56,203 nt of DNA from a virus (IMGVR_UViG_2778260992_000008:1-56203); one strand, 5' to 3'; positions 1 through 33,051 are shown, counted from the stretch's first letter. Notes: generated from the sequence alone by a model not told the origin. Made by a program: numbers and translations.

Positions 1-234
1 TTACGTTTTATCAGTATCAGAAAGCAAGCCTACTGACTTAAAGAACTGCATTACATCTTGATAACGATATACAGGGCGCGACGTAGTTGATAATTCGTGA
101 AGCGGTTCAGGAAATGGGGTACCTGCCGCTTCCCATTTCATTTTCCATACTCTAAAGGTTGTCCTACTTATTCCGCCAAGCATTTCCCTGATCCGTGCCG
201 TAGTTAATAATAATGTCGCGGTTTTATCCATCAC
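1..234 (-). CDS. AlpA/Xis-family small DNA-binding protein (candidate excisionase or regulator)
   Basis: 77-aa ORF; HTH-like segment LLLTTARIREMLGGISRTTFRVW; last gene of the minus-strand arm. Confidence 0.45.
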   Translation of the reverse strand: MMDKTATLLLTTARIREMLGGISRTTFRVWKMKWEAAGTPFPEPLHELSTTSRPVYRYQDVMQFFKSVGLLSDTDKT

Positions 235-884
235 TCATCCCCGGTATATTTAGTTAGCGGGATATCCCCATTAATAATAAATTTTGCCATACCGCGATAA
301 TCACGCGAGTAGTCATTGTCGTGACCGAAATCAATTTCACTTGCCGCATCGAATCCGATAACGACGTTTGCCAGCGCGAACGCAATTTGTGCCAACGCTT
401 TTTCGCGCGGGTCAACGTGAATCCGGTAAGTGTATTGCGTCCATGCAATCGGTGTTTCTGCCTTACGCTCAAGTTTGCTTTGAGCAATGGCCCACTTGTC
501 ACCGATGAAACGGAACATAACCGTGTCGATTACGCAGCCGCTGGCTAAACCGTGACAATCAAGCCACACGCCGCACGGTGGTTTCTCCCCTACAATCCAT
601 TCCGTTTTCTCCGGTTTCGGATCACAGTCGTGGCGTTCGTCTTCGATCAGTTCATCAATAATTTCGCTTTCTTTATTCATGCCGTCATCATCCGTTTCAG
701 AGTAACGCACAAAGCGCCACGTATTAGCCATCAGCGTATAAGATTCACCGCCTACCTTAGATCCGGCGTAATACTCCGTCCCGAAATCGTAATAACTTAA
801 AAACGTAGTTACTTCAAAAGACGGAATATCGCCACGGAAGCGGTGAACCATTTTACCTATTGCAAAAGGGGTTTTCTTTGTCAT
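231..884 (-). CDS. hypothetical phage protein (217 aa)
   Basis: Long ORF whose stop overlaps the downstream gene start by 4 nt; no motif recognised. Confidence 0.45.
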   Translation of the reverse strand: MTKKTPFAIGKMVHRFRGDIPSFEVTTFLSYYDFGTEYYAGSKVGGESYTLMANTWRFVRYSETDDDGMNKESEIIDELIEDERHDCDPKPEKTEWIVGEKPPCGVWLDCHGLASGCVIDTVMFRFIGDKWAIAQSKLERKAETPIAWTQYTYRIHVDPREKALAQIAFALANVVIGFDAASEIDFGHDNDYSRDYRGMAKFIINGDIPLTKYTGDE

Positions 885-885
885 A

Positions 886-1074
886 TTACGCCACCGTTAC
901 ATTGTCAACCTGAATAAAATATTCAGGGTGGTTTTCTATTTCGTGCTGAAAGTGCGCGTGACACAATCGCCACTCCCGCGCCTGGTTGTGAAAGTAATAA
1001 ACGCATTCGCCATCAACCTTATACAAAATTCCGGTAGGTCTAGCCATATAATAACGCGCCATTATTGCCCCCAA
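886..1074 (-). CDS. hypothetical small Cys/His-containing protein
   Basis: 62-aa ORF packed between neighbouring minus-strand genes. Confidence 0.3.
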   Translation of the reverse strand: MGAIMARYYMARPTGILYKVDGECVYYFHNQAREWRLCHAHFQHEIENHPEYFIQVDNVTVA

Positions 1075-1493
1075 CGTTTTATGAATTCCTCGTTTAATTT
1101 CGTATCACCAGACCATTGAACATCATGTTCAGCACCGAACGAGTAAATCAATTCGATTAGTTCGCTGAATTCTGATTTACTCATCCGGCTTGTAGACGTT
1201 CCCAATACAACGAAGCCGGATTTATCCAGGTTAGGGACGACGCCATATTTCTTAAGCCCGGCAGTGAATACCGCTTTCCAGTCTTCCGGCGACAGCTTCT
1301 TACCGTACCAATTAACCTGATCGCTAATGTCGGTTAACAGCGCCCAAAGCAACGCATTTTGGCTTAGCGAGCGGGTTTTCTCCTGGATGGTAATTATCAG
1401 CGGGCTTTTGCTATCAGGCTGGATCTCTCTTATCTGCCTGATAGCATTTTCTTTCACTGCGTCGTTGACTATCTCAAATCTAATTTGCCTCAT
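1062..1493 (-). CDS. ninB: NinB-family recombination protein
   Basis: 143 aa; close match in order and motifs to lambda NinB (SQNALLWALLTDIS..., VVPNLDKSGFVVLGTSTSRMSKSEF...). Confidence 0.8.
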   Translation of the reverse strand: MRQIRFEIVNDAVKENAIRQIREIQPDSKSPLIITIQEKTRSLSQNALLWALLTDISDQVNWYGKKLSPEDWKAVFTAGLKKYGVVPNLDKSGFVVLGTSTSRMSKSEFSELIELIYSFGAEHDVQWSGDTKLNEEFIKRWGQ

Positions 1494-1687
1494 AATACAC
1501 CGTTGCTATTTTTCCATTGCGCCCGTGCGTACATAATCGCCTGCAAAGAAATTAGCCGCGAGCTTGTCATGAATGCGCCTTTTAAATATTTCATATCAAC
1601 CGTAACGGGCTTATCAGGATCATCGCCGCGCATGTACTCCGCGATAGTGCTTAAGTCTTCCACTGTTAAATCCAATTCCTTGTCCAT
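1490..1687 (-). CDS. hypothetical protein
   Basis: 65-aa ORF, 4-nt overlap with ninB start. Confidence 0.35.
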   Translation of the reverse strand: MDKELDLTVEDLSTIAEYMRGDDPDKPVTVDMKYLKGAFMTSSRLISLQAIMYARAQWKNSNGVL

Positions 1688-1696
1688 AATTCCCCC

Positions 1697-1903
1697 TTAC
1701 ACAATCCGCATTGTGTTTCGTAATTCCCCGCGCAGCGCCCGCAATGCATCGCGCATTGGCACAAAAACCCGGTTAAATTTTACGTGTTTATATTTACGCA
1801 TCAGTGGCGGTGTATACACCATTGCGTCGTATACTTCCCACGGATAATAAACGCGCGTATCGTCAACAAACGTTTCAACTGAATAAAAGATTACACGTCT
1901 CAT
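1697..1903 (-). CDS. hypothetical protein
   Basis: 68-aa ORF in operon context. Confidence 0.35.
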   Translation of the reverse strand: MRRVIFYSVETFVDDTRVYYPWEVYDAMVYTPPLMRKYKHVKFNRVFVPMRDALRALRGELRNTMRIV

Positions 1904-2457
1904 AATTCTAACCCCGTTTCCCCGTTAAGTTTTTCGATCTCAAATACTGGTTTATCCGGTAGTAGGCCGTTATTTTTCCGGTATTCGTTCAGGCGGCTGT
2001 CAAAGTCAAACGCGAGATCATTCGCGTGACCGAAGCGACCAGGTTTAAACAGTGAGTAAAAATTAAGGCCGTGTTTATTGGTATCTATGCAAAGCGTTTC
2101 ATCCAGCACCATTAAACGCAGCGTGCGCGAAAGGTAATTCCACGGAATGCCAGTTTCCGCGCTAATATCTCTCATTCGCTTTCTAACGTTGTAGTCAGTA
2201 AATAACGCGGCTACACGCTCGCGTCGTTGTTCGTATAAATATTTAATTCGATAGCCCAGCAAGCGGCGGCGCGGGCCAAAATATGTATACACCCGCTCAA
2301 CCAGATTAGTGTCGATCAGGTGTTTAACTGTTTCCGGCAAGCATCCGGCTTCGTCGTATTCCGCTGATAATCCTGTTTTCTGGCGTAGCTGGTGCATTGT
2401 TGCGATGCCATCAAGTTCAAGGATATTGATAATTTTTGCTTCAAGTTCAATGCTCAT
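1900..2457 (-). CDS. hypothetical protein downstream of helicase gene
   Basis: ORF 1900-2493; ATG at 2457 preceded by GAGG chosen over the upstream non-ATG start. Confidence 0.4.
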   Translation of the reverse strand: MSIELEAKIINILELDGIATMHQLRQKTGLSAEYDEAGCLPETVKHLIDTNLVERVYTYFGPRRRLLGYRIKYLYEQRRERVAALFTDYNVRKRMRDISAETGIPWNYLSRTLRLMVLDETLCIDTNKHGLNFYSLFKPGRFGHANDLAFDFDSRLNEYRKNNGLLPDKPVFEIEKLNGETGLEL

Positions 2458-2536
2458 TGTTTTTCGCCTCGTTTTAAGCGCGAAAACAGCCACCAGAAAG
2501 CGGTCAACTTTCCGGTAAGCCGTTTGCTCAAGTTAA

Positions 2537-3958
2537 TTAAAAAGATGCGTTGTTCTGGCTGTTTCGTGTGGAGAATCGACTTGCCGCCGGACGTTGTTGC
2601 ATTGACTGAATGCAAGCGGACGCCGCGCGGGCCTGGTCGCATGGGATGATGTTGCCGTTATCGTCAAACCGCTGGTAAACAGTCCCCGTTTTCCCGTGAC
2701 GGTTTTTTGAAACGATGATCTCCATATATTCGCGGGCAACCGATTGTTCGTTGTAGTAGCCGTCGCGGTAGACCATGATGATCCGGTCTGCGTCCTGTTC
2801 AAGATTACCGGAATCACGCAGATCAGAATTGTTCGGGCGCTTGTTCGGTCGTTCCTCAACGCGGCGGGATAATTGCGCCAGCGCCGCCACTGGCACGCGC
2901 AACTCTTTCGCCATCATTTTCAATGACCACGACAATTGCCCTACGGCGAGATCATGACGTTCGGCCTTAGCCAGCTTCATTAACCCGATGTAGTCAATCA
3001 TTACCATCCCCAGGTTAGGATGGTCCTGTTTCATCCGTTCGACGGTGGCGCGTATTTCCTCGACCGTTAACTGCGATGCGTCAACAATCCACACATCGAG
3101 ATCGGCAAGGGCACTCATTCCCTGGGCGACGTGCGCCCAACCTTCGTCATCCAGTTTTACCGGATTACGTAGGCAATCCGTTGATAAGTTCCCAGCGCCA
3201 GCGATAGCACGTTCAGTCATCTGATCGAGCGACATTTCAAGCGTGAACAGCAAAACGCCGACCCGTTGACCTTCGCCGCCAGGGTATGGACGTTCAGCCG
3301 CCGCGCGGGCAATTGCCAACGCTAACGCCGATTTACCAGACCCTGGGCGTCCGGCGATAAGCACCAGATCAGTAGCGTTAATGCCGCCTAACATTTCGTC
3401 GAGTGGTTCGATCCCTGTTTTGATGTTGTCAGAATTAACACCACATTCCATACGTTTGCTTAAGACTTCCGTATATTCCTGTACCGCGTCGCGCAACAGC
3501 ACCGGAATAATCTTGTCTTTCGTTGTCTTTAATTTTGAATAGCGGGAATCAAAATATTTCATCGTCTCCCTGACGGCTTCGAGCGTCCCGGTCTCCAGGT
3601 TGTAGCGGATATCGTCTATCAGTTCCAACATTTGCCGCCGCTGATATTCCTCCTGCAATAGAGCTGCGTACCCCTTAAGGTTGGCAGCAGATGGACACGA
3701 TCGCGCCGTTTGCATTAGCGGGACAAAATTTTCGTTACCGATTTCATCACCGACCATCAGCGCGTCAATAAGGTTTCTGTTTCTGGCTTGCGCCCGGATT
3801 ATCTCAAACGCTCGTTTATATAGTGGAATGGTGAAGACTTCAGGATCGAGCGTAGCAAGAACATCTTGCGCGTTAGGAGTAAGACCGCCCAACAGGAGGC
3901 CACCTATCACAGCCGCCTCCCGTTCCTGGCGTAATGAGTTTATTTGCTCAGTCACCAT
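2537..3958 (-). CDS. replicative DNA helicase, DnaB family
   Basis: 473 aa; Walker A GRPGSGKSALALAIA, DnaB-like N-terminal domain and RecA-like core motifs. Confidence 0.9.
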   Translation of the reverse strand: MVTEQINSLRQEREAAVIGGLLLGGLTPNAQDVLATLDPEVFTIPLYKRAFEIIRAQARNRNLIDALMVGDEIGNENFVPLMQTARSCPSAANLKGYAALLQEEYQRRQMLELIDDIRYNLETGTLEAVRETMKYFDSRYSKLKTTKDKIIPVLLRDAVQEYTEVLSKRMECGVNSDNIKTGIEPLDEMLGGINATDLVLIAGRPGSGKSALALAIARAAAERPYPGGEGQRVGVLLFTLEMSLDQMTERAIAGAGNLSTDCLRNPVKLDDEGWAHVAQGMSALADLDVWIVDASQLTVEEIRATVERMKQDHPNLGMVMIDYIGLMKLAKAERHDLAVGQLSWSLKMMAKELRVPVAALAQLSRRVEERPNKRPNNSDLRDSGNLEQDADRIIMVYRDGYYNEQSVAREYMEIIVSKNRHGKTGTVYQRFDDNGNIIPCDQARAASACIQSMQQRPAASRFSTRNSQNNASF

Positions 3959-3976
3959 TATGGTATTGCCTCCGGT

Positions 3977-5095
3977 TTACAAAATGGAATATTCAGGGTA
4001 ATAAACAAAGCGCCCAATTTCCCCATAATCCGGGCTGTAAATTATTACCGCTGCCAGCCGCCGCGACCGCCAGCCGCCATTTGTTGAATAAGCGTCTTTG
4101 CCCGCTAACGTGCCGTGATGTTCAACGATCCCTAACGATGTTTCTACGACAGATTGATGATGTAGGTGGCCCGTGTGAGCGTAAACCGCCGCCGACTTAC
4201 CGAAATCCTCCCGCCAGTCAGAAACGCAGGCAGCCAACAAATTTTCGGGTTTTTTGATAGTGTGCCCGTGGTGGTAAGCAAGGAATGTTTTTCCGTACTG
4301 TGTGTGGTGAACGATAGCAGGGGATACATCAACCGTCACGCGCGGTTCATCTTCATAAAAAGCCGCCAGCGCCGCACGTAGCCAAATCATCCCCGATTGG
4401 TCGTGGTTGCCGGATAATACCTGGATCTCGACATCCTTATGATTTAGTAACATCTTCCCGACCGCACGCCTGACCGACCGGATCGCCACATAAACAAGTT
4501 TTGCGTAGCGACTATCTTGATCAAGAATATGTCCGCTTGTCGGTGTAACCGGGATCATCCCATCAGAATGGAGTAGATCTCCGCCTAACAGCAAAACAGC
4601 CTTTTCAGACATTGGAGCAGCGCCTACAGCGTAGTCGAAGAAGTCATTTAGCACGCGTTCAGCGATCCCGGTGTCGTAGCTTTCGCCGCATTCCGCCCTA
4701 TGCGCAAGCGCCCCGATATGAAGATCGAATACCGGATAAAGGGCCAGGCTTTTTTGGAAATCAATCTCAGGAACTGGCACAGCCTCCGCGCGGGGTATCT
4801 CTTCCGTGAAAGCATCGCAAGCCGCTTGCATTAGCCTTTCCATTTCGTCTCGATCACGGGCCGTTTTAATCCAGCGCATAATCACATTGCCATCCTTATC
4901 AACGAGCAATGATTCACCGTTAACACCGAAGCCAGGAGCGCGACGCGTGGATATTAAACCGCGCTTCGCCAGCCGTGCGCCCAGGCGTTCGACGTTGCGT
5001 TTTGCCATTCCATATTCTTCGGCTATTTGCTTGTAAGTTTTCCCCTTATTGTATTCAGCGATCAGTTGTTCGTCGCTGATCTTTCTTTGTGACAT
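3977..5095 (-). CDS. HTH-domain protein fused to calcineurin-like metallophosphoesterase
   Basis: N-terminal HTH (KTYKQIAEEYGMAKRNVERL); phosphoesterase motifs FDLHIG, GGDLLHSDG, SGNHDQ, YHHGH, HTGHLHH; sits between replication organiser and helicase. Confidence 0.6.
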   Translation of the reverse strand: MSQRKISDEQLIAEYNKGKTYKQIAEEYGMAKRNVERLGARLAKRGLISTRRAPGFGVNGESLLVDKDGNVIMRWIKTARDRDEMERLMQAACDAFTEEIPRAEAVPVPEIDFQKSLALYPVFDLHIGALAHRAECGESYDTGIAERVLNDFFDYAVGAAPMSEKAVLLLGGDLLHSDGMIPVTPTSGHILDQDSRYAKLVYVAIRSVRRAVGKMLLNHKDVEIQVLSGNHDQSGMIWLRAALAAFYEDEPRVTVDVSPAIVHHTQYGKTFLAYHHGHTIKKPENLLAACVSDWREDFGKSAAVYAHTGHLHHQSVVETSLGIVEHHGTLAGKDAYSTNGGWRSRRLAAVIIYSPDYGEIGRFVYYPEYSIL

Positions 5096-5272
5096 AACGT
5101 TATTCCCTCCGGTTCACGGAATGAGTATTTATTCATAAATAACTATTTTTATTAACATGGATTTTCCGGTGACAAAAAAAGTCATCGGTGATAAATCAAT
5201 AACTTACGCAAATTAAAAATAACTACTTAATAAATAACTAATCGTATACATTATAGTTTACATTTTGTATAT

Positions 5273-6184
5273 TCATTGACAGCAAACAATCTCTTTATAT
5301 GTTTCTTCTACCATGTCGAAAACTTCAGGCCTGTAATAAAAAAATTCTTCGCTACCGCTAAATTTTACAGGAAAGTTAATTTTATAATTGCTAAAAGCCT
5401 TATGCATCGTTCTTTCTAATTCATATATATTTTCGGTTGGTCCATATAGCGTTTTCACGATATGCAAATCAGGAATTATAACGCCTGCTTTATGTGCGCT
5501 TCTTAATACCTGATTTCTTCGCTCGTTCTCCTTAACACTTACACCTATTTTCATTTGTGTAGGTACTTCCAGATCATCAACCATGATGTAAAGTTTTCCG
5601 TGATCGTGGGATAAAAAACCGCGTTTACCGCATTTCGGGCAACCGTGCCCGCATTTAAGGTGACTAGGCTTTGCTAACCACTTGTGATTACAAACTTTAC
5701 AGCGACACAATACCTTCTTCGCATCTCCGGTAATTTTCCCTAAAACTTCAACATCATGATTAGCCTTAACAATATTTGCAACTTGTTCTTTGTGTGTTAA
5801 TGTTGCTTTTAATCTCGCGCATTTCGGGCAACCGTGCCCGCATTTAAGGGCATTAGGTATAGACGACCATTCATGTCTACAAACCTTGCATCGACATAAC
5901 ACTTTCGTTTTGTCTCCTGTTATTTCTCCTGTAACTTCAACATCAGGATTAACCTTAGCAATGGCTACAACCTGTTCTTCGTGTGTTAACTTCGCATTTC
6001 CAGCGCATTTTGGACAACCCTGACCTCGCTTGAGGTTGCAAGGTGTAGGCGACCATTCATGTCTACAAACCTTGCATCTACATGTGACTTTTGTTTTATT
6101 GCCAGTAATTTCCCCGATCACTTCAACATCAGGATTGACGTCAGCAATAACTGCAACCTGTTCTTCGTGTGTTAACTTTCTCAT
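5273..6184 (-). CDS. triple zinc-ribbon repeat protein with C-terminal T5orf172/GIY-YIG-like domain
   Basis: Three ~47-aa repeats (LTHEEQV..NPDVEV.GEITG.KTKV.CRCKVCRHEWS...GCPKC); C-terminal KLYIMVDD...ENIYELERTMH...SGSEEFF; AT-rich; start 6184 chosen (ORF extends to 6226). Confidence 0.55.
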   Translation of the reverse strand: MRKLTHEEQVAVIADVNPDVEVIGEITGNKTKVTCRCKVCRHEWSPTPCNLKRGQGCPKCAGNAKLTHEEQVVAIAKVNPDVEVTGEITGDKTKVLCRCKVCRHEWSSIPNALKCGHGCPKCARLKATLTHKEQVANIVKANHDVEVLGKITGDAKKVLCRCKVCNHKWLAKPSHLKCGHGCPKCGKRGFLSHDHGKLYIMVDDLEVPTQMKIGVSVKENERRNQVLRSAHKAGVIIPDLHIVKTLYGPTENIYELERTMHKAFSNYKINFPVKFSGSEEFFYYRPEVFDMVEETYKEIVCCQ

Positions 6185-6324
6185 CGATCCAACTCCACAA
6201 AACGCACCAGACGCTATACAACGCAAAATTCCACCGCGTAACCCACTTGTAAGGGTGCAGTGTCTTTTTCGCGCCAGAGACGCTATCAGGTGGCTAATTT
6301 TCGATTTTTAAGGTGACAGGGTAG

Positions 6325-6426
6325 TTATGGATTAACTAGCAGATACAAACCGCCGAACAAAGCGACATTAACAGCGATAGCCATCGCGATCGCGAAAGCC
6401 AGGGCGAACATGCGTTTACCGTTCAT
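6325..6426 (-). CDS. small hydrophobic peptide (33 aa)
   Basis: MNGKRMFALAFAIAMAIAVNVALFGGLYLLVNP; RBS AGAGAGGA 8 nt upstream; not in track (<60 aa). Confidence 0.3.
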   Translation of the reverse strand: MNGKRMFALAFAIAMAIAVNVALFGGLYLLVNP

Positions 6427-6558
6427 AGCTAAATCCTCTCTCAATCGCTCTCTAACGAGCTAATCGCAAAAAGGTAAGAAGTGTAGCACCCCATGCGATT
6501 TAGCCCGCTGGTGAGCTTGTTTTGTGGGTAATTTTGGTTCTTTAGTGATGATGGATAG

Positions 6559-7668
6559 TCAAAGAGCGCCAGCGCGTGTATCACGTAGCGTTTTTGGTTT
6601 AAGCAGGAAATCAAGTGTCGCAGTAAAGCCATTGCCGAAGTAAAAATCTGAAGCCGTGTTTTTGAACGCCTCAAAGTAAGCAATAAAGCCAGTGATGCTT
6701 TTGTCTTTCAGGTAGTCAGTGAACGCATAGATCTTGCGTTCCAAATCCCGATCCAGTTCGGCAGGTGGTAACAGGCCGTCGAATGTCTGGTTAAATGCTG
6801 ATACCACGACAGCAGCGTTAACAGTAGCTGTAACTCTTCGCCATTGTTCAGCATCAGCCAGATACCCATCAAACTTAGTTACCCGGCAAATGTTGATAGG
6901 CTTAGGTACTCCACTCCGGCTACGCCATTGCGTTAAAGCCCATTCAATTACTAATGTGATCTCATCCTCCGTATATGCCTTACGTGTTTTTGTTTCTGTC
7001 AGTAGTTCGATGAATGGCTTCGTATCACGACATTTGCATCCTGCTTTTTCGTTGTAGAAAGCTAAGCAACGGTAAGCCGCCTCGCTTATCTGAAAGTCAC
7101 CGTCCTGATTGACCGTTTTTTGTCCATTTTCGCTAATACACGAAGTGTATATATCTTTTTCTATTTCTTCTTCTACTTCTTCTTCTACTTCTAATCCATG
7201 GCTATGACATGGTTGTGCCATGGCTGCATCATGGTTGTGCCATGGTTTTTCTTTTTCTGTATCTTGTGAATTATTTACTTCCACTAAAGGATTATCTAAC
7301 TTTTTATTTTTTTTGACGTTTAGCCTTTTAATTGCTTCCCTAAATTCGCTTTTTGATGAAGCCATTGATTGATCAAGTCTTTTTGCTAACGACAAGCATC
7401 TTACAACGCCATGCGAGCAATCGAACAAGCCAACTTCGATGAAGTATCTCATCATTTCTTCTACACGTTTCGGACTTGATCCGACATTACGGGCAATAAT
7501 TCTTGCGTCGTGTTTTAGTTCGAATGTCAGATTATGTTGATCTACTTCGTAGGCTATTAACTCGATGCAGTACCAATAAAGGCCGTATCCTTCCAGACCA
7601 TAATCAAGCAAAACGTTTTGAAGTTTTTCATCGCGGTTCGCATCGCTATCATGCTTAAACCACTTCAT
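6559..7668 (-). CDS. replication initiation / replisome organiser protein
   Basis: N-terminus MKWFKHDSDANRDEKLQNVLLDYGLEGYGLYWYCIELIA resembles phage replisome-organiser N-terminal domains; strong RBS AGGAGAAAAGCAA-ATG; first gene of minus-strand arm. Confidence 0.7.
   Translation of the reverse strand: MKWFKHDSDANRDEKLQNVLLDYGLEGYGLYWYCIELIAYEVDQHNLTFELKHDARIIARNVGSSPKRVEEMMRYFIEVGLFDCSHGVVRCLSLAKRLDQSMASSKSEFREAIKRLNVKKNKKLDNPLVEVNNSQDTEKEKPWHNHDAAMAQPCHSHGLEVEEEVEEEIEKDIYTSCISENGQKTVNQDGDFQISEAAYRCLAFYNEKAGCKCRDTKPFIELLTETKTRKAYTEDEITLVIEWALTQWRSRSGVPKPINICRVTKFDGYLADAEQWRRVTATVNAAVVVSAFNQTFDGLLPPAELDRDLERKIYAFTDYLKDKSITGFIAYFEAFKNTASDFYFGNGFTATLDFLLKPKTLRDTRAGAL
7160..7330. repeat. iteron-like direct repeats plus AT-rich tract inside the replication gene (candidate origin)
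   Basis: CATGGTTGTGCCATGG at 7208-7223 and 7230-7245; CTTCTTCTACTT x2 upstream; AT-rich run 7246-7330. Confidence 0.45.
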
Positions 7669-7975
7669 TTGCTTTTCTCCTATGGTTAAAATGAACGCGC
7701 GGGCGGGTATCCCATTAGCATTAGATAGCAGTGATTGACCGCTTAACAGATCCCGCCGTTGCGTGATATTTGTTTTTCGCTTCGCAGCGACACCGGGTTT
7801 TTAAAGAGCTTTAAGGTATGCGCCTTTTTGTGCTATTCCCTTATCTTTTTTCTTGCATCCTTGCAAGTCTGGCTTTACCTTGTCTGCAAGTTTACAGAAT
7901 GGCATTTACAGGTCAAGACTTGAAAAATACATTTTGTGACTTGCATCAAACTTTTTGGGGCGATAGGGTAGCGAC

Positions 7976-8623
7976 ATGAAAACAAAATGGTATGACTTAG
8001 CAAAACAACTCATGCGGGCGCAAGGTATGAGCCAGGATTCATTGGCGGACCTGATGGGGATCACGAAAGGCGGCTTATCGCACTGGCTGAACGGTCGCCG
8101 TGAGCCAAATCTTAATGATATTGCGCGGATCATGCGGGCGCTTGGTCGTCGGCAGTTTACGGTCACACATGATGGGATGGTTATTGATGATTCACTTTCT
8201 AATACACTGCCGGGAGCGCCACCGCTCGACGTAGGGCGTTATCCGGTGATTGACTGGAAAGACGCAGGAAACTACATGGAAGAAGCAAAACGCGCATCAT
8301 TACCGCACGTTAACACTAGCGTGATTTGTTCGGATGATAGTTATTGGCTGGTTGCAAAAGGTGAATCGATGAACGCGCCGCAAGGATTGAGCATCCCGGC
8401 GGGAACGATGATACTTGTTGATCCACACGCGCCAGCTATTGACGGCAAACTGGTTATAGCCCAATTGGAGGAAGGGCAAACGCCGACGTTTAAACAGTTG
8501 ATTATTGATGGAGGTCAAAGGCTTTTACGCTCGCTTAATCCGTTGTATCCACCAATCCCGCTAAATCCTGAATCAAAAATTATTGGCGTGGTGGTGGACG
8601 CGAAGATCGTAAACCTGCCATAA
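7976..8623 (+). CDS. cI-like repressor, HTH plus S24 LexA-type peptidase domain
   Basis: N-terminal HTH (SQDSLADLMGITKGGLSHWLNGRR); C-terminal GESM Ser and FKQL Lys dyad; divergent from replication genes. Confidence 0.85.
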   Translation: MKTKWYDLAKQLMRAQGMSQDSLADLMGITKGGLSHWLNGRREPNLNDIARIMRALGRRQFTVTHDGMVIDDSLSNTLPGAPPLDVGRYPVIDWKDAGNYMEEAKRASLPHVNTSVICSDDSYWLVAKGESMNAPQGLSIPAGTMILVDPHAPAIDGKLVIAQLEEGQTPTFKQLIIDGGQRLLRSLNPLYPPIPLNPESKIIGVVVDAKIVNLP

Positions 8624-31777: not shown

Positions 31778-33051
31778 AGACCGTGAATAAAGAATTAATT
31801 CAGGTTAATACCAAATTAACCGCTAATACCATCCGCCGGGAAACATACAACGGGCGGGAACATATTGTCGTCCCGTCCTACACATTACCCTTTAACATCG
31901 TTATGAATCGGGAATATTACCCGGAAGCTGAAATTATCGCTAATTACCAGTCACTGGAGGGCACACTCGCCCCGCTTGGTCATCCTACCGTAGACGGTAA
32001 ATTTGTTTCCGCATTTAGCCCGGAGGGATTAAACACGGGTTTTTGTGGAGCATGGAATAGAAACGTGGAATTACGCGGCAATCGTGTTTATGTGGAAAAA
32101 TGGGTGGACGTGGAAACCGCCAGCCATTCAGAGCAGGGCCGGGAATTATTAACCCGACTGGAAGCGCTGGAGAAAGGCGAAAGCAAGGATCCGATCTGGT
32201 CTTCCGTCGCTGTATATCGTCAACGTATGCCAGCTACTGAAGAGATGAAAGCCCAGGGTGCGGATCACGTAGTGAAAATTATGTCAATTGACCATGACGC
32301 TATTTTACTGCATGAACCGCCCGCCGCATCACCAGAGCAGGGCGTTGGCCTGATGGTTAACACCGACCAGGCGAAACCGTTAATGACGGTGGCGATGAAA
32401 GAAAATAGCTATCGCACCCTTGAAAAACAATTAACCGACGCGGCGCGGGAATTGTTCCCTGATGCCGATTATGTGTATGTGGTGGACTTCACTGATAAAG
32501 AAGTGACGATCGCTACTAATACTGAAAGTGCTCAAGTTTGCGCATATGAAAAACAGGCTGATAAAATTATTCTCAATAATGGCGAACTGCAAACTAACGA
32601 GGATTCCAAATCCTGGTTCGCTCAATTCGCTGAACATCTATCTGATTTATTCATCCTGAAAGAAAAAATCCAGGCCAATAAGAAAGAGGAAACCGACATG
32701 CCTTTGACCAAAGAAGAACGCGCCGATCTGGTAAAAGAAATTAACGAAGGTTTAGCCGCTAATATCGCTAATGCAGTAGCTGAAGCATTAAAACCAGTAC
32801 AGGCAAGCGTAGAAGAATTGCAGACCAACCAGAAAGCAATTAAAGAAGAAATTGCAGCAAACGCAGATAAAGAAGTCGAAGCAAAACGCGCCGCAGTAGC
32901 AAAAGTCCACGGCGAAATTGTTGCTAATGATTTGGGTCGTGAAGCATTAGAAGAAATGTTTAAAAACCTGGGCAAAGCCGCGCCGCTGGCAACCAATGCC
33001 GCCGAAGAAGGCAAAAAAGGCGAAGTGCCAGACTTTAACACTTATTTCTAA
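31768..33051 (+). CDS. capsid scaffolding protein (possibly with N-terminal protease-like domain)
   Basis: 427 aa; C-terminal half Ala/Glu/Lys-rich; positioned between MuF-like and capsid genes. Confidence 0.45.
   Translation: MGVKTVNKELIQVNTKLTANTIRRETYNGREHIVVPSYTLPFNIVMNREYYPEAEIIANYQSLEGTLAPLGHPTVDGKFVSAFSPEGLNTGFCGAWNRNVELRGNRVYVEKWVDVETASHSEQGRELLTRLEALEKGESKDPIWSSVAVYRQRMPATEEMKAQGADHVVKIMSIDHDAILLHEPPAASPEQGVGLMVNTDQAKPLMTVAMKENSYRTLEKQLTDAARELFPDADYVYVVDFTDKEVTIATNTESAQVCAYEKQADKIILNNGELQTNEDSKSWFAQFAEHLSDLFILKEKIQANKKEETDMPLTKEERADLVKEINEGLAANIANAVAEALKPVQASVEELQTNQKAIKEEIAANADKEVEAKRAAVAKVHGEIVANDLGREALEEMFKNLGKAAPLATNAAEEGKKGEVPDFNTYF

What the first reader, a model, noticed from the sequence alone, without database searches (positions are those of the whole stretch)
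7160..7330. Candidate replication origin inside the replication-organiser gene
Two exact 16-bp direct repeats CATGGTTGTGCCATGG (7208-7223, 7230-7245), flanked by CTTCTTCTACTT repeats, are followed by an AT-rich tract (7246-7330) inside the coding sequence. This resembles the lambda ori arrangement of iterons plus an AT-rich region within gene O.
Basis: partly seen in the sequence, partly recalled or inferred. Interest (0 to 1): 0.5.

Follow-up and report, generated by a model that had tools for sequence, protein, structure and literature searches.

The report
Replication origin inside phage initiator gene
A short array of protein-binding repeats next to easily melted DNA, hidden inside the coding sequence of a coliphage's replication-initiator gene, is very probably the phage's replication origin. 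It is built like the classic lambda origin but belongs to an unrelated and unstudied initiator family.

Summary
The two exact 16-mers belong to an array of five CCATG cores spaced exactly 11 bp apart (7196-7245). The array is unique in the window and lies in the linker-coding part of a 369-aa initiator gene (6559-7668, minus strand; Pfam Lin1244_N). AT-rich DNA flanks it on both sides.

The window is an mEp021-like (mEpimmI) coliphage. Relatives carry one of three N-terminal domain types, and each type has its own phased repeats at the same spot. The repeats stay with the N-domain when the C-terminal part is exchanged. They fall in different reading frames, and they depart from consensus exactly where the consensus would create a stop codon.

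Most of 22 distant Lin1244_N genes from many phyla show the same module: phased repeats, often TCATGA, followed by a purine-rich AT tract. The order repeats, purine tract, palindrome matches lambda ori.

So the lambda-like origin reading is supported.

Nothing has been tested experimentally. This is a new member of a known kind.

The parts
6559..7668 (-). Replication initiator gene, 369 aa. It has an N-terminal Lin1244_N domain, a disordered linker that carries the origin signals, and a C-terminal 'O-like' region.
   Evidence: ORF. Pfam PF14297 E=5.6e-11 for aa 3-85. PHROG hits for the C-terminal part are annotated 'replication initiation protein' and 'replication initiation O-like' (phrog_428 E=5e-22, phrog_345 E=1e-19). 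AlphaFold gives pLDDT 22-32 for the linker, about aa 121-190.
7354..7668 (-). Coding region of the N-terminal domain (aa 1-105), predicted winged helix-turn-helix. This is the presumed iteron-binding domain.
   Evidence: AlphaFold model built on a 68-sequence alignment: pLDDT 71-94 for aa 11-90, with helices 55-62 and 66-78 followed by a beta-hairpin at 83-90. The listed Foldseek PDB hits are mostly winged-helix regulators (Crp/NtcA, MarR, CodY), but they are weak (E>=0.013, TM about 0.45). The domain type changes together with the repeat type.
7196..7245 (.). Iteron array of five hexamer cores, one per helical turn. In gene sense they read CCATGG, CCATGA, CCATGG, CCATGT, CCATGG, at + strand 7240-7245, 7229-7234, 7218-7223, 7207-7212 and 7196-7201. 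Three of the five are perfect palindromes.
   Evidence: Zero variable columns among four type-A sequences. Successive units fall in different reading frames.
7151..7195 (.). AT-rich tract that is purine-rich on the coding strand (gene sense ATTAGAAGTAGAAGAAGAAGTAGAAGAAGAAATAGAAAAAGATAT). Preferred candidate for the DNA-unwinding element.
   Evidence: It holds the only 40-nt stretch in the window with at least 90% purine/pyrimidine, and the 40-bp window starting at 7148 is tenth in the list of least stable non-overlapping windows of the 56 kb. An equivalent tract follows the repeats in most distant family members and stays AT-rich in GC-rich genomes. It occupies the same position as the AAAAGAAAAAAGAAAAGATTATT tract of lambda ori.
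7136..7150 (.). Palindrome ATACAC-GAA-GTGTAT directly after the purine tract.
   Evidence: Read. It is present in most relatives of all three types. In L047-L049 a different inverted repeat, GCGCAA-AA-TTGCGC, takes its place, and it is absent in L006, L016 and L046. Lambda has an inverted repeat in the same relative position.
7246..7330 (.). Alternative or additional unwinding region.
   Evidence: GC 0.23-0.28. The 80-bp window starting at 7253 is fourth in the list of least stable non-overlapping windows. It is less general than the purine tract: there is no comparable AT-rich tract upstream of the repeats in type C phages or in L018 and L024.
2537..3958 (-). DnaB-type replicative helicase gene of the same leftward early operon. 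Presumed partner recruited to the opened origin.
   Evidence: Pfam DnaB_C E=8.8e-76 and DnaB N-terminal domain E=9e-12.
7889..7916 (-). Promoter-like site (TTGACC-16-TAAACT) upstream of the initiator gene, in the divergent region facing the cI-like repressor gene. Transcription from it would pass through the origin.
   Evidence: Consensus match only. The repressor at 7976-8623 has HTH_3 plus Peptidase_S24 domains.

Best explanation
The 50-bp array at 7196-7245, together with its AT-rich flanks, is the phage's origin of bidirectional (theta) replication. It is embedded in the linker-coding part of the initiator gene, as in lambda.

Proposed mechanism:
1. The initiator's N-terminal winged-helix domain, probably as dimers, binds the five palindromic CCATG-type cores. 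These lie one helical turn apart, so all sit on one face of the DNA.
2. The resulting nucleoprotein complex bends and strains the DNA.
3. An adjacent AT-rich tract opens. The most likely one is the 45-bp purine/pyrimidine-asymmetric tract at 7151-7195, with 7246-7330 as an alternative.
4. The C-terminal domain helps to load the phage's own DnaB-type helicase (2537-3958).
5. Early transcription from the promoter region facing the repressor gene runs through the site.

Shown here: the anatomy; selection acting at the DNA level; co-inheritance of repeat type with N-domain type; conservation of the module across the protein family.

Inferred: protein binding, unwinding, helicase recruitment, and origin activity itself.
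For: 1. The array is real, unique and helically phased.

2. It is a DNA-level signal, not a protein repeat. Units 11 or 22 nt apart fall in different reading frames and encode PWHNHD / AAMAQP / CHSHG.

3. There is a stop-codon conflict.
   - In type B relatives, the TCATGA sites at 11-nt steps are exact in two frames. In the frame where TGA would be a stop, the site differs by one base, and by a different base in different relatives: TCAGGA, TCAAGA, TCATGT, TCATGG.
   - The window's fourth site is CCATGT where its 22-bp partner is CCATGA.
   - The distant locus L021 shows the same thing.

4. Conservation.
   - Type A: 0 of 52 array columns vary among four sequences, against 29 of 315 in the N-domain and 30 of 72 just downstream.
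   - Type B: cores 1, 2 and 4 are invariant in nine sequences, while the adjacent coding DNA has up to 13 variable sites per 44 nt. They are also intact in three further relatives.

5. Specificity module. Three N-domain types have three repeat types at the same position. The repeat type stays with the N-domain when the C-terminal part is recombined (L049 against the window; L046-L048 against L002).

6. The small HTH gene upstream in relatives is not the binder. It is absent from the window and from L049, and its subtypes are shuffled relative to repeat types A and B.

7. Family-wide pattern in 22 non-redundant distant loci from many phyla. The best 7-mer just before a purine tract has 3.7 copies, against 2.55 in 440 control segments (p=7e-9). 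Of 60 spacings, 47 are 10/11/21/22/32/33 nt, against 94 of 680 in controls (Fisher p=9e-26).

8. The purine tract keeps GC 0.34-0.41 in loci of GC 0.54-0.62.

9. Both flanks of the array include some of the least stable DNA in the window.

10. Element order matches lambda ori (architecture described in PMC7466680) and SPP1 oriL inside gene 38 (PMC6316719).

11. The N-domain models as a winged helix. The linker is predicted to be disordered, so it is free to carry DNA signals. A DnaB-type helicase lies in the same operon.
Against: - There is no experimental datum for this phage group. The one genome paper never uses the word 'iteron' and describes no origin in the passages shown.
- Co-variation of repeats with the N-domain is also what simple physical linkage would give.
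- The purine tract also encodes an acidic/basic linker (EVEEEVEEEIEK), so part of its conservation may be at the protein level.
- The wHTH assignment rests on a medium-confidence model and weak fold matches (E>=0.013).
- About 5 of the 22 non-redundant distant loci (L020, L022, L029, L033 and, less clearly, L027; L034/L035 duplicate L033) show no convincing array at the expected place.
- The palindrome is missing in some relatives.
- Which flank opens is not determined.
- The cumulative GC-skew minimum lies in the 6-8 kb bin, but it coincides with the switch in transcription direction and so does not discriminate.
Confidence: 0.75

Rival explanations
1. The repeats are binding sites for the initiator or another regulator, but they serve regulation rather than origin firing. 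Examples would be a roadblock or autoregulation of the initiator gene, or control of downstream early genes. The real origin would then lie elsewhere.
For: Phased palindromic sites inside a transcribed gene could act as a roadblock. Iteron-binding Rep proteins of plasmids also autoregulate (established knowledge). No replication data exist.
Against: - The sites always sit next to a strand-asymmetric AT-rich tract, which is unnecessary for a roadblock.
- The element order copies a proven origin.
- No second copy of the array exists anywhere in the 56 kb that could serve as the 'real' origin for the same protein.
Confidence: 0.1
2. The origin is elsewhere in the genome, for example the very AT-rich intergenic region at 5096-5272. 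The repeats in the gene would then be incidental.
For: 5096-5272 holds the least stable 80-bp window of the whole sequence (start 5192). It contains loose AGTTATT-type repeats.
Against: - That intergenic region goes with a variable cassette, the zinc-ribbon/T5orf172 gene at 5273-6226. The space is only 33 nt in mEp021, and the cassette is absent in MagusPhagus. It is therefore not a conserved feature of the phage group.
- The array inside the gene is conserved across the group and across the protein family.
Confidence: 0.07
3. The repeats are a by-product of slippage or recombination in a low-complexity, disordered linker at a mosaic junction, with no function at the DNA level.
For: The linker is predicted to be disordered. 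The purine tract varies by 6-nt indels among relatives. Recombination junctions lie right after it.
Against: - Slippage gives tandem copies. It does not give 11- and 21-nt helical phasing maintained across phyla.
- It does not explain zero variation in the array amid variable flanks.
- It does not explain one-base departures confined to the frame where the consensus would be a stop codon.
Confidence: 0.05
4. The palindromic repeats act as RNA or DNA hairpins. An example would be an intrinsic terminator for + strand (antisense) transcription: hairpin at 7228-7246 followed by TTTTTCTTTTT.
For: The terminator-like site was found by the scan. The + strand RNA of 7190-7262 folds at -21.5 kcal/mol with z=-2.1.
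Against: - The large ORFs with recognisable domains or annotated homologues from 231 to 7668 are on the minus strand, so no + strand transcription unit is evident upstream.
- The stem has only 3 G-C pairs.
- Type B and type C arrays are not followed by a comparable hairpin plus T-run.
- There is no Rfam match.
- Hairpin potential is an automatic consequence of palindromic cores.
Confidence: 0.03

Closest known systems
Lambda ori inside gene O (lambdoid phages, including Stx phages)
   Same: - The origin lies in the middle of the initiator gene, between the parts coding for the N- and C-terminal domains.
- There are several directly repeated sites, each with internal dyad symmetry.
- In the direction of the gene, these are followed by an AT-rich tract that is purine-rich on the coding strand, then by an inverted repeat (PMC7466680).
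- Repeat type travels with the N-terminal domain.
- Early transcription runs through the site.
   Different: - The initiator N-domain is Lin1244_N (PF14297), not Phage_rep_O. There is no detectable homology to lambda O (hhalign probability 0.3%).
- The sites are short 6-bp cores at 11-bp steps rather than 18-19-bp iterons about 20-24 bp apart.
- A second AT-rich tract lies on the other side of the array.
- The phage carries its own DnaB-type helicase instead of a P-type loader for the host DnaB.
P22 ori in gene 18, with the phage helicase gene 12 (recalled from the literature, not checked here)
   Same: An initiator gene containing the origin, combined with a phage-encoded DnaB-type helicase in the same early operon.
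   Different: No sequence relationship was tested. The P22 initiator belongs to another family.
SPP1 oriL inside gene 38
   Same: Direct repeats bound by the origin-binding protein, plus an AT-rich unwinding element, positioned within the initiator's own gene. The helicase is of the DnaB family (PMC6316719).
   Different: SPP1 has a second origin (oriR) elsewhere and a separate helicase loader, gp39. No second copy of the array was found in this window, and no loader gene was recognised.
mEp021-type initiators of the same phage group (HTH_36 N-domain, annotated 'DNA replication protein O')
   Same: - The C-terminal 176 residues are shared at 88% identity.
- The gene position is the same.
- The purine/AT tract and the palindrome are the same.
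   Different: - The N-terminal domain is different (PF13730).
- The repeats are different: four 22/23-bp units GGTAGTGNCACAGAGNCACC.
Iteron-type plasmid origins (RepA/pi-type winged-helix initiators)
   Same: Winged-helix initiator, phased direct repeats, adjacent AT-rich unwinding element.
   Different: Plasmid iterons lie outside the rep gene and are usually accompanied by DnaA boxes. Here the array is inside the gene, and neither of the window's two DnaA-box matches (32,091 and 53,386) lies near it.

Membership tests
Lambda-type origin embedded in the initiator gene (architecture class) | Three or more directly repeated sites inside the initiator ORF, between the N- and C-domain coding parts | tested here: met
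   Five phased cores at 7196-7245, corresponding to aa 141-158 of 369.
Lambda-type origin embedded in the initiator gene (architecture class) | Adjacent AT-rich, easily melted tract | tested here: met
   Each flank contains one of the 12 least stable non-overlapping 40-bp windows of the 56 kb. 7152-7193 is uniquely strand-asymmetric.
Lambda-type origin embedded in the initiator gene (architecture class) | Repeat sequence changes together with the initiator's DNA-binding domain and is kept at the DNA level | tested here: met
   Three domain types go with three repeat types. The repeats stay with the N-domain across recombinant C-terminal parts. The array does not vary among relatives of the same type. 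The sites avoid stop codons by one-base departures. Caveat: physical linkage alone could give the co-variation.
Lambda-type origin embedded in the initiator gene (architecture class) | The initiator binds the repeats and the fragment supports initiator-dependent replication | not testable with these tools
   Needs EMSA or footprinting and an ori-plasmid or marker-frequency experiment.
Lambda O protein family (Pfam Phage_rep_O, PF04492) | Sequence homology of the N-terminal origin-binding domain to lambda O | tested here: not met
   Pfam reports only Lin1244_N for the window protein. hhalign against lambda O gives probability 0.3%. Only the C-terminal half matches PHROG families annotated 'O-like'.
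Lin1244/Lin1753-like proteins (Pfam PF14297, formerly DUF4373) | N-terminal domain scoring above the Pfam gathering threshold | tested here: met
   43.5 bits against a cut-off of 25, aa 3-85. The invariant MKWFKHD start is shared with 23 homologues from other loci.
Iteron plasmid origins | Iterons outside the rep gene, with DnaA box(es) in the origin | tested here: not met
   The array is inside the gene. The only two TTWTNCACA matches in the window lie at 32,091 and 53,386.
mEpimmI (mEp021-like) coliphages | Genome-wide nucleotide similarity and shared gene order around the cI-like repressor | tested here: met
   84-86% identity over 72-84% of a 24-kb query to MagusPhagus and the mEp phages. 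The order repressor, initiator, helicase is the same.

The most novel reading that the evidence does not exclude
The Lin1244_N (DUF4373) domain marks a pan-bacterial family of phage and prophage initiators. Their genes almost always carry their own origin in the linker. That origin is a helically phased array of short palindromic cores, very often TCATGA, followed by a purine-rich unwinding tract.

Because the array must also be translated, the reading frame shapes origin architecture. Many steps are 21 nt (two helical turns, seven codons). Where the consensus would give an in-frame TGA, the site departs from it by one base.

If true, this gives a rule for predicting the origin, and probably the binding specificity, of thousands of uncharacterised phages from sequence alone.
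Probability: 0.55. Interest if true: 0.6.

Novelty: new member of a known kind. Interest (0 to 1): 0.45.

Why it matters
- It gives the first concrete, testable origin for the mEpimmI (mEp021-like) coliphages. [quoted passage not shown]
- It gives a function and a likely DNA target to the Lin1244_N/DUF4373 domain. No paper in the searched library discusses this domain in connection with replication.
- The overlap of an initiator-binding array with a coding sequence, with visible stop-codon avoidance, is a clean natural example of dual coding. It could be used to predict origins and replication-specificity groups in phage and prophage genomes.
- Practically, the 7100-7350 fragment plus the initiator is a candidate minimal replicon, and a candidate target for origin-derived interference with phage replication.

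Tried and rejected
- **Homology to lambda O.** hhalign of the initiator alignment against lambda O gave probability 0.3%, so membership in the O family was rejected.
- **Solved structures by sequence.** A single-sequence search and a 24-sequence N-domain profile found nothing significant (best E=0.27-0.95).
- **Full-length AlphaFold model.** It was poor (mean pLDDT 52). Its Foldseek search gave nothing usable for the C-terminal domain (best E=0.75).
- **NCBIfam.** No family for the initiator.
- **DnaA boxes.** Only two in the window, both far away.
- **Rfam.** No match at 6300-8100.
- **Small upstream HTH_36 protein as the iteron binder.** Rejected. It is absent from the window and from L049, and its subtypes do not follow the repeat types.
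- **AT-rich intergenic region 5096-5272 as the origin.** Rejected because it is not conserved in mEp021 or MagusPhagus.
- **Cumulative GC skew.** The minimum is in the 6-8 kb bin, but it is confounded by the switch in transcription direction.
- **Literature.** A search for DUF4373/Lin1244/PF14297 found no paper on replication. A search for lactococcal-phage examples gave nothing directly usable.

Full report
**What is there**

They are part of a larger, more regular structure. Five CATGG cores start at 7197, 7208, 7219, 7230 and 7241, one every 11 bp. Read as hexamers on the gene's strand they are CCATGG, CCATGA, CCATGG, CCATGT, CCATGG. The phased pattern does not occur in any of 100 shuffles of the window, and there is no other copy in the 56 kb.

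The array lies inside a 369-codon ORF on the minus strand (6559-7668). The N-terminus of this ORF is a Lin1244_N domain (Pfam PF14297, E=5.6e-11). Its C-terminal half matches PHROG families annotated as replication initiation proteins.

The DNA is AT-rich on both sides of the array. The 'CTTCTTCTACTT' side, 7151-7195, has GC about 0.28 and contains the only 40-nt stretch in the window that is at least 90% purine on one strand. Each flank contains one of the twelve least stable non-overlapping 40-bp windows of the whole sequence. Next to the purine tract is the palindrome ATACAC-GAA-GTGTAT (7136-7150).

**Context**

The window is a relative of the mEp021-like (mEpimmI) coliphages. It shares 84-86% identity over most of a 24-kb query.

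The initiator gene is the first gene of the leftward early operon. It faces a cI-like repressor gene with HTH_3 and Peptidase_S24 domains (7976-8623). A DnaB-type helicase lies further down the operon (2537-3958). ERF and SSB genes are on the other side.

**A signal in the DNA, not in the protein**

Units 11 or 22 nt apart cannot be in the same reading frame. The array is translated as PWHNHD-AAMAQP-CHSHG. AlphaFold predicts this part of the protein, about aa 121-190, to be disordered.

Relatives fall into three types.

| Type | Loci | Repeats |
|---|---|---|
| A | window, L008, L009, L049 | the array described above |
| B | MagusPhagus, mEp515, seven E. coli prophages, three metagenomic contigs | related Lin1244_N domain (about 80% protein identity overall); four GGTCATGA sites at 11-bp steps at the same place |
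| C | mEp021, mEp044, mEp010, mEp554, mEp013 | unrelated HTH_36 N-domain; four 22/23-bp repeats GGTAGTGNCACAGAGNCACC; same C-terminal 176 residues (88% identity) |

- Within type A, the 52-nt array has no variable column, while 29 of 315 N-domain columns and 30 of 72 columns just downstream vary.
- Within type B, cores 1, 2 and 4 are invariant in nine sequences, while neighbouring coding DNA shows up to 13 variable sites per 44 nt. They are also intact in three further relatives.
- The repeat type follows the N-domain when the rest of the gene is exchanged by recombination: L049 has the type A domain and array on a different middle segment, and L046-L048 do the same for type B.

**The stop-codon conflict**

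At 11-nt steps a site passes through all three reading frames. In one frame TCATGA would read TCA-TGA, which is a stop.

- Exactly at that position the third type B site departs from the consensus by one base. Different relatives use different bases: TCAGGA, TCAAGA, TCATGT, TCATGG.
- The window's fourth site is CCATGT, where the equivalent site of the previous 22-bp unit is CCATGA.
- A distant Sulfurovum locus (L021) shows the same one-base departure in the same frame.
- Several distant arrays move in 21-nt steps, which are two helical turns and seven codons. This avoids the problem.

This is what one expects if the site sequence is selected as DNA and yields only where translation forbids it.

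**Generality**

A scan of one genome per species found 28 loci with Lin1244_N homologues (27-85% identity over the matched part of the N-domain). They come from Vibrio, Cellvibrionaceae, Sulfurovum, Helicobacteraceae, spirochaetes, Planctomycetota, Microbacteriaceae, candidate phyla and others.

- In most of them the strongest local direct-repeat signal of the roughly 3-kb locus lies 260-640 nt into the gene, just after the N-domain.
- The repeats are short words at 10/11/21/22-nt spacing, very often with the core (A/G)TCATGA(C/T). They are followed immediately by a purine-rich tract such as AGAAGAGAATAGAAAAGA.
- Against 440 control segments from the same loci, copy number is higher (3.7 against 2.55, p=7e-9). 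Helical-phase spacings are 47 of 60 against 94 of 680 (p=9e-26).
- The purine tract keeps GC 0.34-0.41 even in loci of GC 0.54-0.62, using codons such as AGA, GAA and TTA. This argues that its composition is selected as DNA as well as protein.
- About five loci show no convincing array.

**Comparison with known origins**

I fetched lambda ori. In the direction of gene O it reads as follows: four dyad-symmetric iterons, then ACAAAAGAAAAAAGAAAAGATTATT (AT-rich, purine-rich on the coding strand), then an inverted repeat.

The window, in the direction of its gene, reads: five dyad-symmetric cores, then GAAGTAGAAGAAGAAGTAGAAGAAGAAATAGAAAAAGATATAT, then an inverted repeat. The architecture and even the order are the same.

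[quoted passage not shown] SPP1 oriL likewise consists of direct repeats plus an AT-rich unwinding element inside gene 38 (PMC6316719).

The proteins are not detectably related in their DNA-binding domains. This is therefore the same kind of device in a different initiator family. With a 68-sequence alignment the N-domain models as a winged helix-turn-helix (pLDDT 71-94 for aa 11-90). Its listed fold matches are mostly winged-helix regulators, many of which bind palindromic sites as dimers, but the matches are weak (E>=0.013). I use them only for fold class.

**Mechanism proposed**

1. Dimers of the N-domain occupy the five cores on one face of the helix.
2. The complex destabilises an adjacent AT-rich tract.
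3. The C-terminal domain recruits the phage DnaB-type helicase.
4. Early transcription crosses the site.

I prefer 7151-7195 as the tract that opens. It is the one conserved across all three local types and across the family. It is strand-asymmetric, and it occupies the position of lambda's unwinding element. All four steps are inferred.

**Rivals**

- A purely regulatory role for the sites does not explain the invariably adjacent unwinding-type tract.
- An origin elsewhere, such as the very AT-rich 5096-5272 spacer, is not conserved in relatives.
- Slippage in a low-complexity linker does not explain the phasing, the lack of variation in the array or the stop-codon avoidance.
- A + strand terminator-like hairpin at 7228-7246 has no transcription unit to terminate and is not shared by types B and C.
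- The small HTH_36 protein encoded upstream in relatives cannot be the binder. The window and L049 lack the gene, and its subtypes do not follow repeat types A and B.

**Novelty and verdict**

The kind of element, an origin embedded in the initiator gene, is textbook. What is new is the instance.

- No origin is described for the mEpimmI phages in the passages of their genome paper shown, which never uses the word 'iteron'.
- No origin feature is annotated in the public records I fetched.
- No paper in the searched library links DUF4373/Lin1244 to replication.

I rate it a new member of a known kind with moderate interest. The family-wide module and the dual-coding signature are the most interesting by-products. 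Confidence that this is the origin is about 0.75. Confidence that 7151-7195 is the element that opens is about 0.55.

Noticed in passing
window 7669-7975; compare L001 4175-4420, L002 4216-4470, L008 1256-1510, L049 897-1200: All other relatives examined, apart from L049, carry a small HTH_36 gene (80-123 aa, annotated MarR-like or 'replication initiation protein') between the repressor gene and the initiator gene. The window lacks it cleanly: the small gene's ribosome-binding site (CATAGGAG) is joined directly to the initiator start. One metagenomic relative (L049) has the same short arrangement. The small protein comes in at least two subtypes that are shuffled relative to initiator types A and B. 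Its role, perhaps Cro-like, is unknown.
   Followed up: partly
window 5096-5272 and 5273-6226 (minus strand): The least stable 80 bp of the whole window lie in the spacer after a gene with three zinc-ribbon (DUF4379/CapR) repeats plus a T5orf172 domain. The spacer holds several AGTTATT-type words. This slot downstream of the initiator is variable in relatives (antirepressor, other zinc-ribbon proteins, or nothing), which suggests a mobile or moron-like cassette.
   Followed up: partly
L021 nt 424, L031 nt 448, L032 nt 448, L036 nt 427 (gene coordinates): In four distant Lin1244_N genes the last site before the purine tract is the same variant, (A/C/T)(A/T)GTCATGC(A/T)AG. It is in a frame where TCATGA would be allowed, so this promoter-distal site may have a distinct role, for example as the boundary of the unwinding element.
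   Followed up: no
L047-L049, just after the purine tract (gene nt about 505-530): A recombinant middle segment replaces the ATACACTTCGTGTAT palindrome with another inverted repeat, GCGCAA-AA-TTGCGC, at the same relative position. L006, L016 and L046 have none. So a palindrome after the AT-rich tract is frequent but not obligatory.
   Followed up: partly
window 7228-7256 (+ strand): A terminator-like hairpin plus T-run is formed by the last repeat and the start of the AT-rich tract, antisense to the initiator gene. There is no obvious + strand transcript to terminate.
   Followed up: partly
window 8010-8026 and 8130-8146: A 17-nt direct repeat, TCATGCGGGCGC(AA/TT)GGT, lies 120 nt apart inside the cI-like repressor gene (encoding LMRAQG and IMRALG). 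It may be chance or an internal duplication of the HTH region.
   Followed up: no
proteins P0131 and P0167: Some short metagenomic proteins combine Lin1244_N with T5orf172 (PF10544) or HNH (PF01844/PF14279) nuclease domains. The domain is therefore also used outside the initiator architecture.
   Followed up: no
window, whole length: Cumulative GC skew has its minimum in the 6-8 kb bin, near both the candidate origin and the point where transcription diverges. The two causes cannot be separated from sequence alone.
   Followed up: partly
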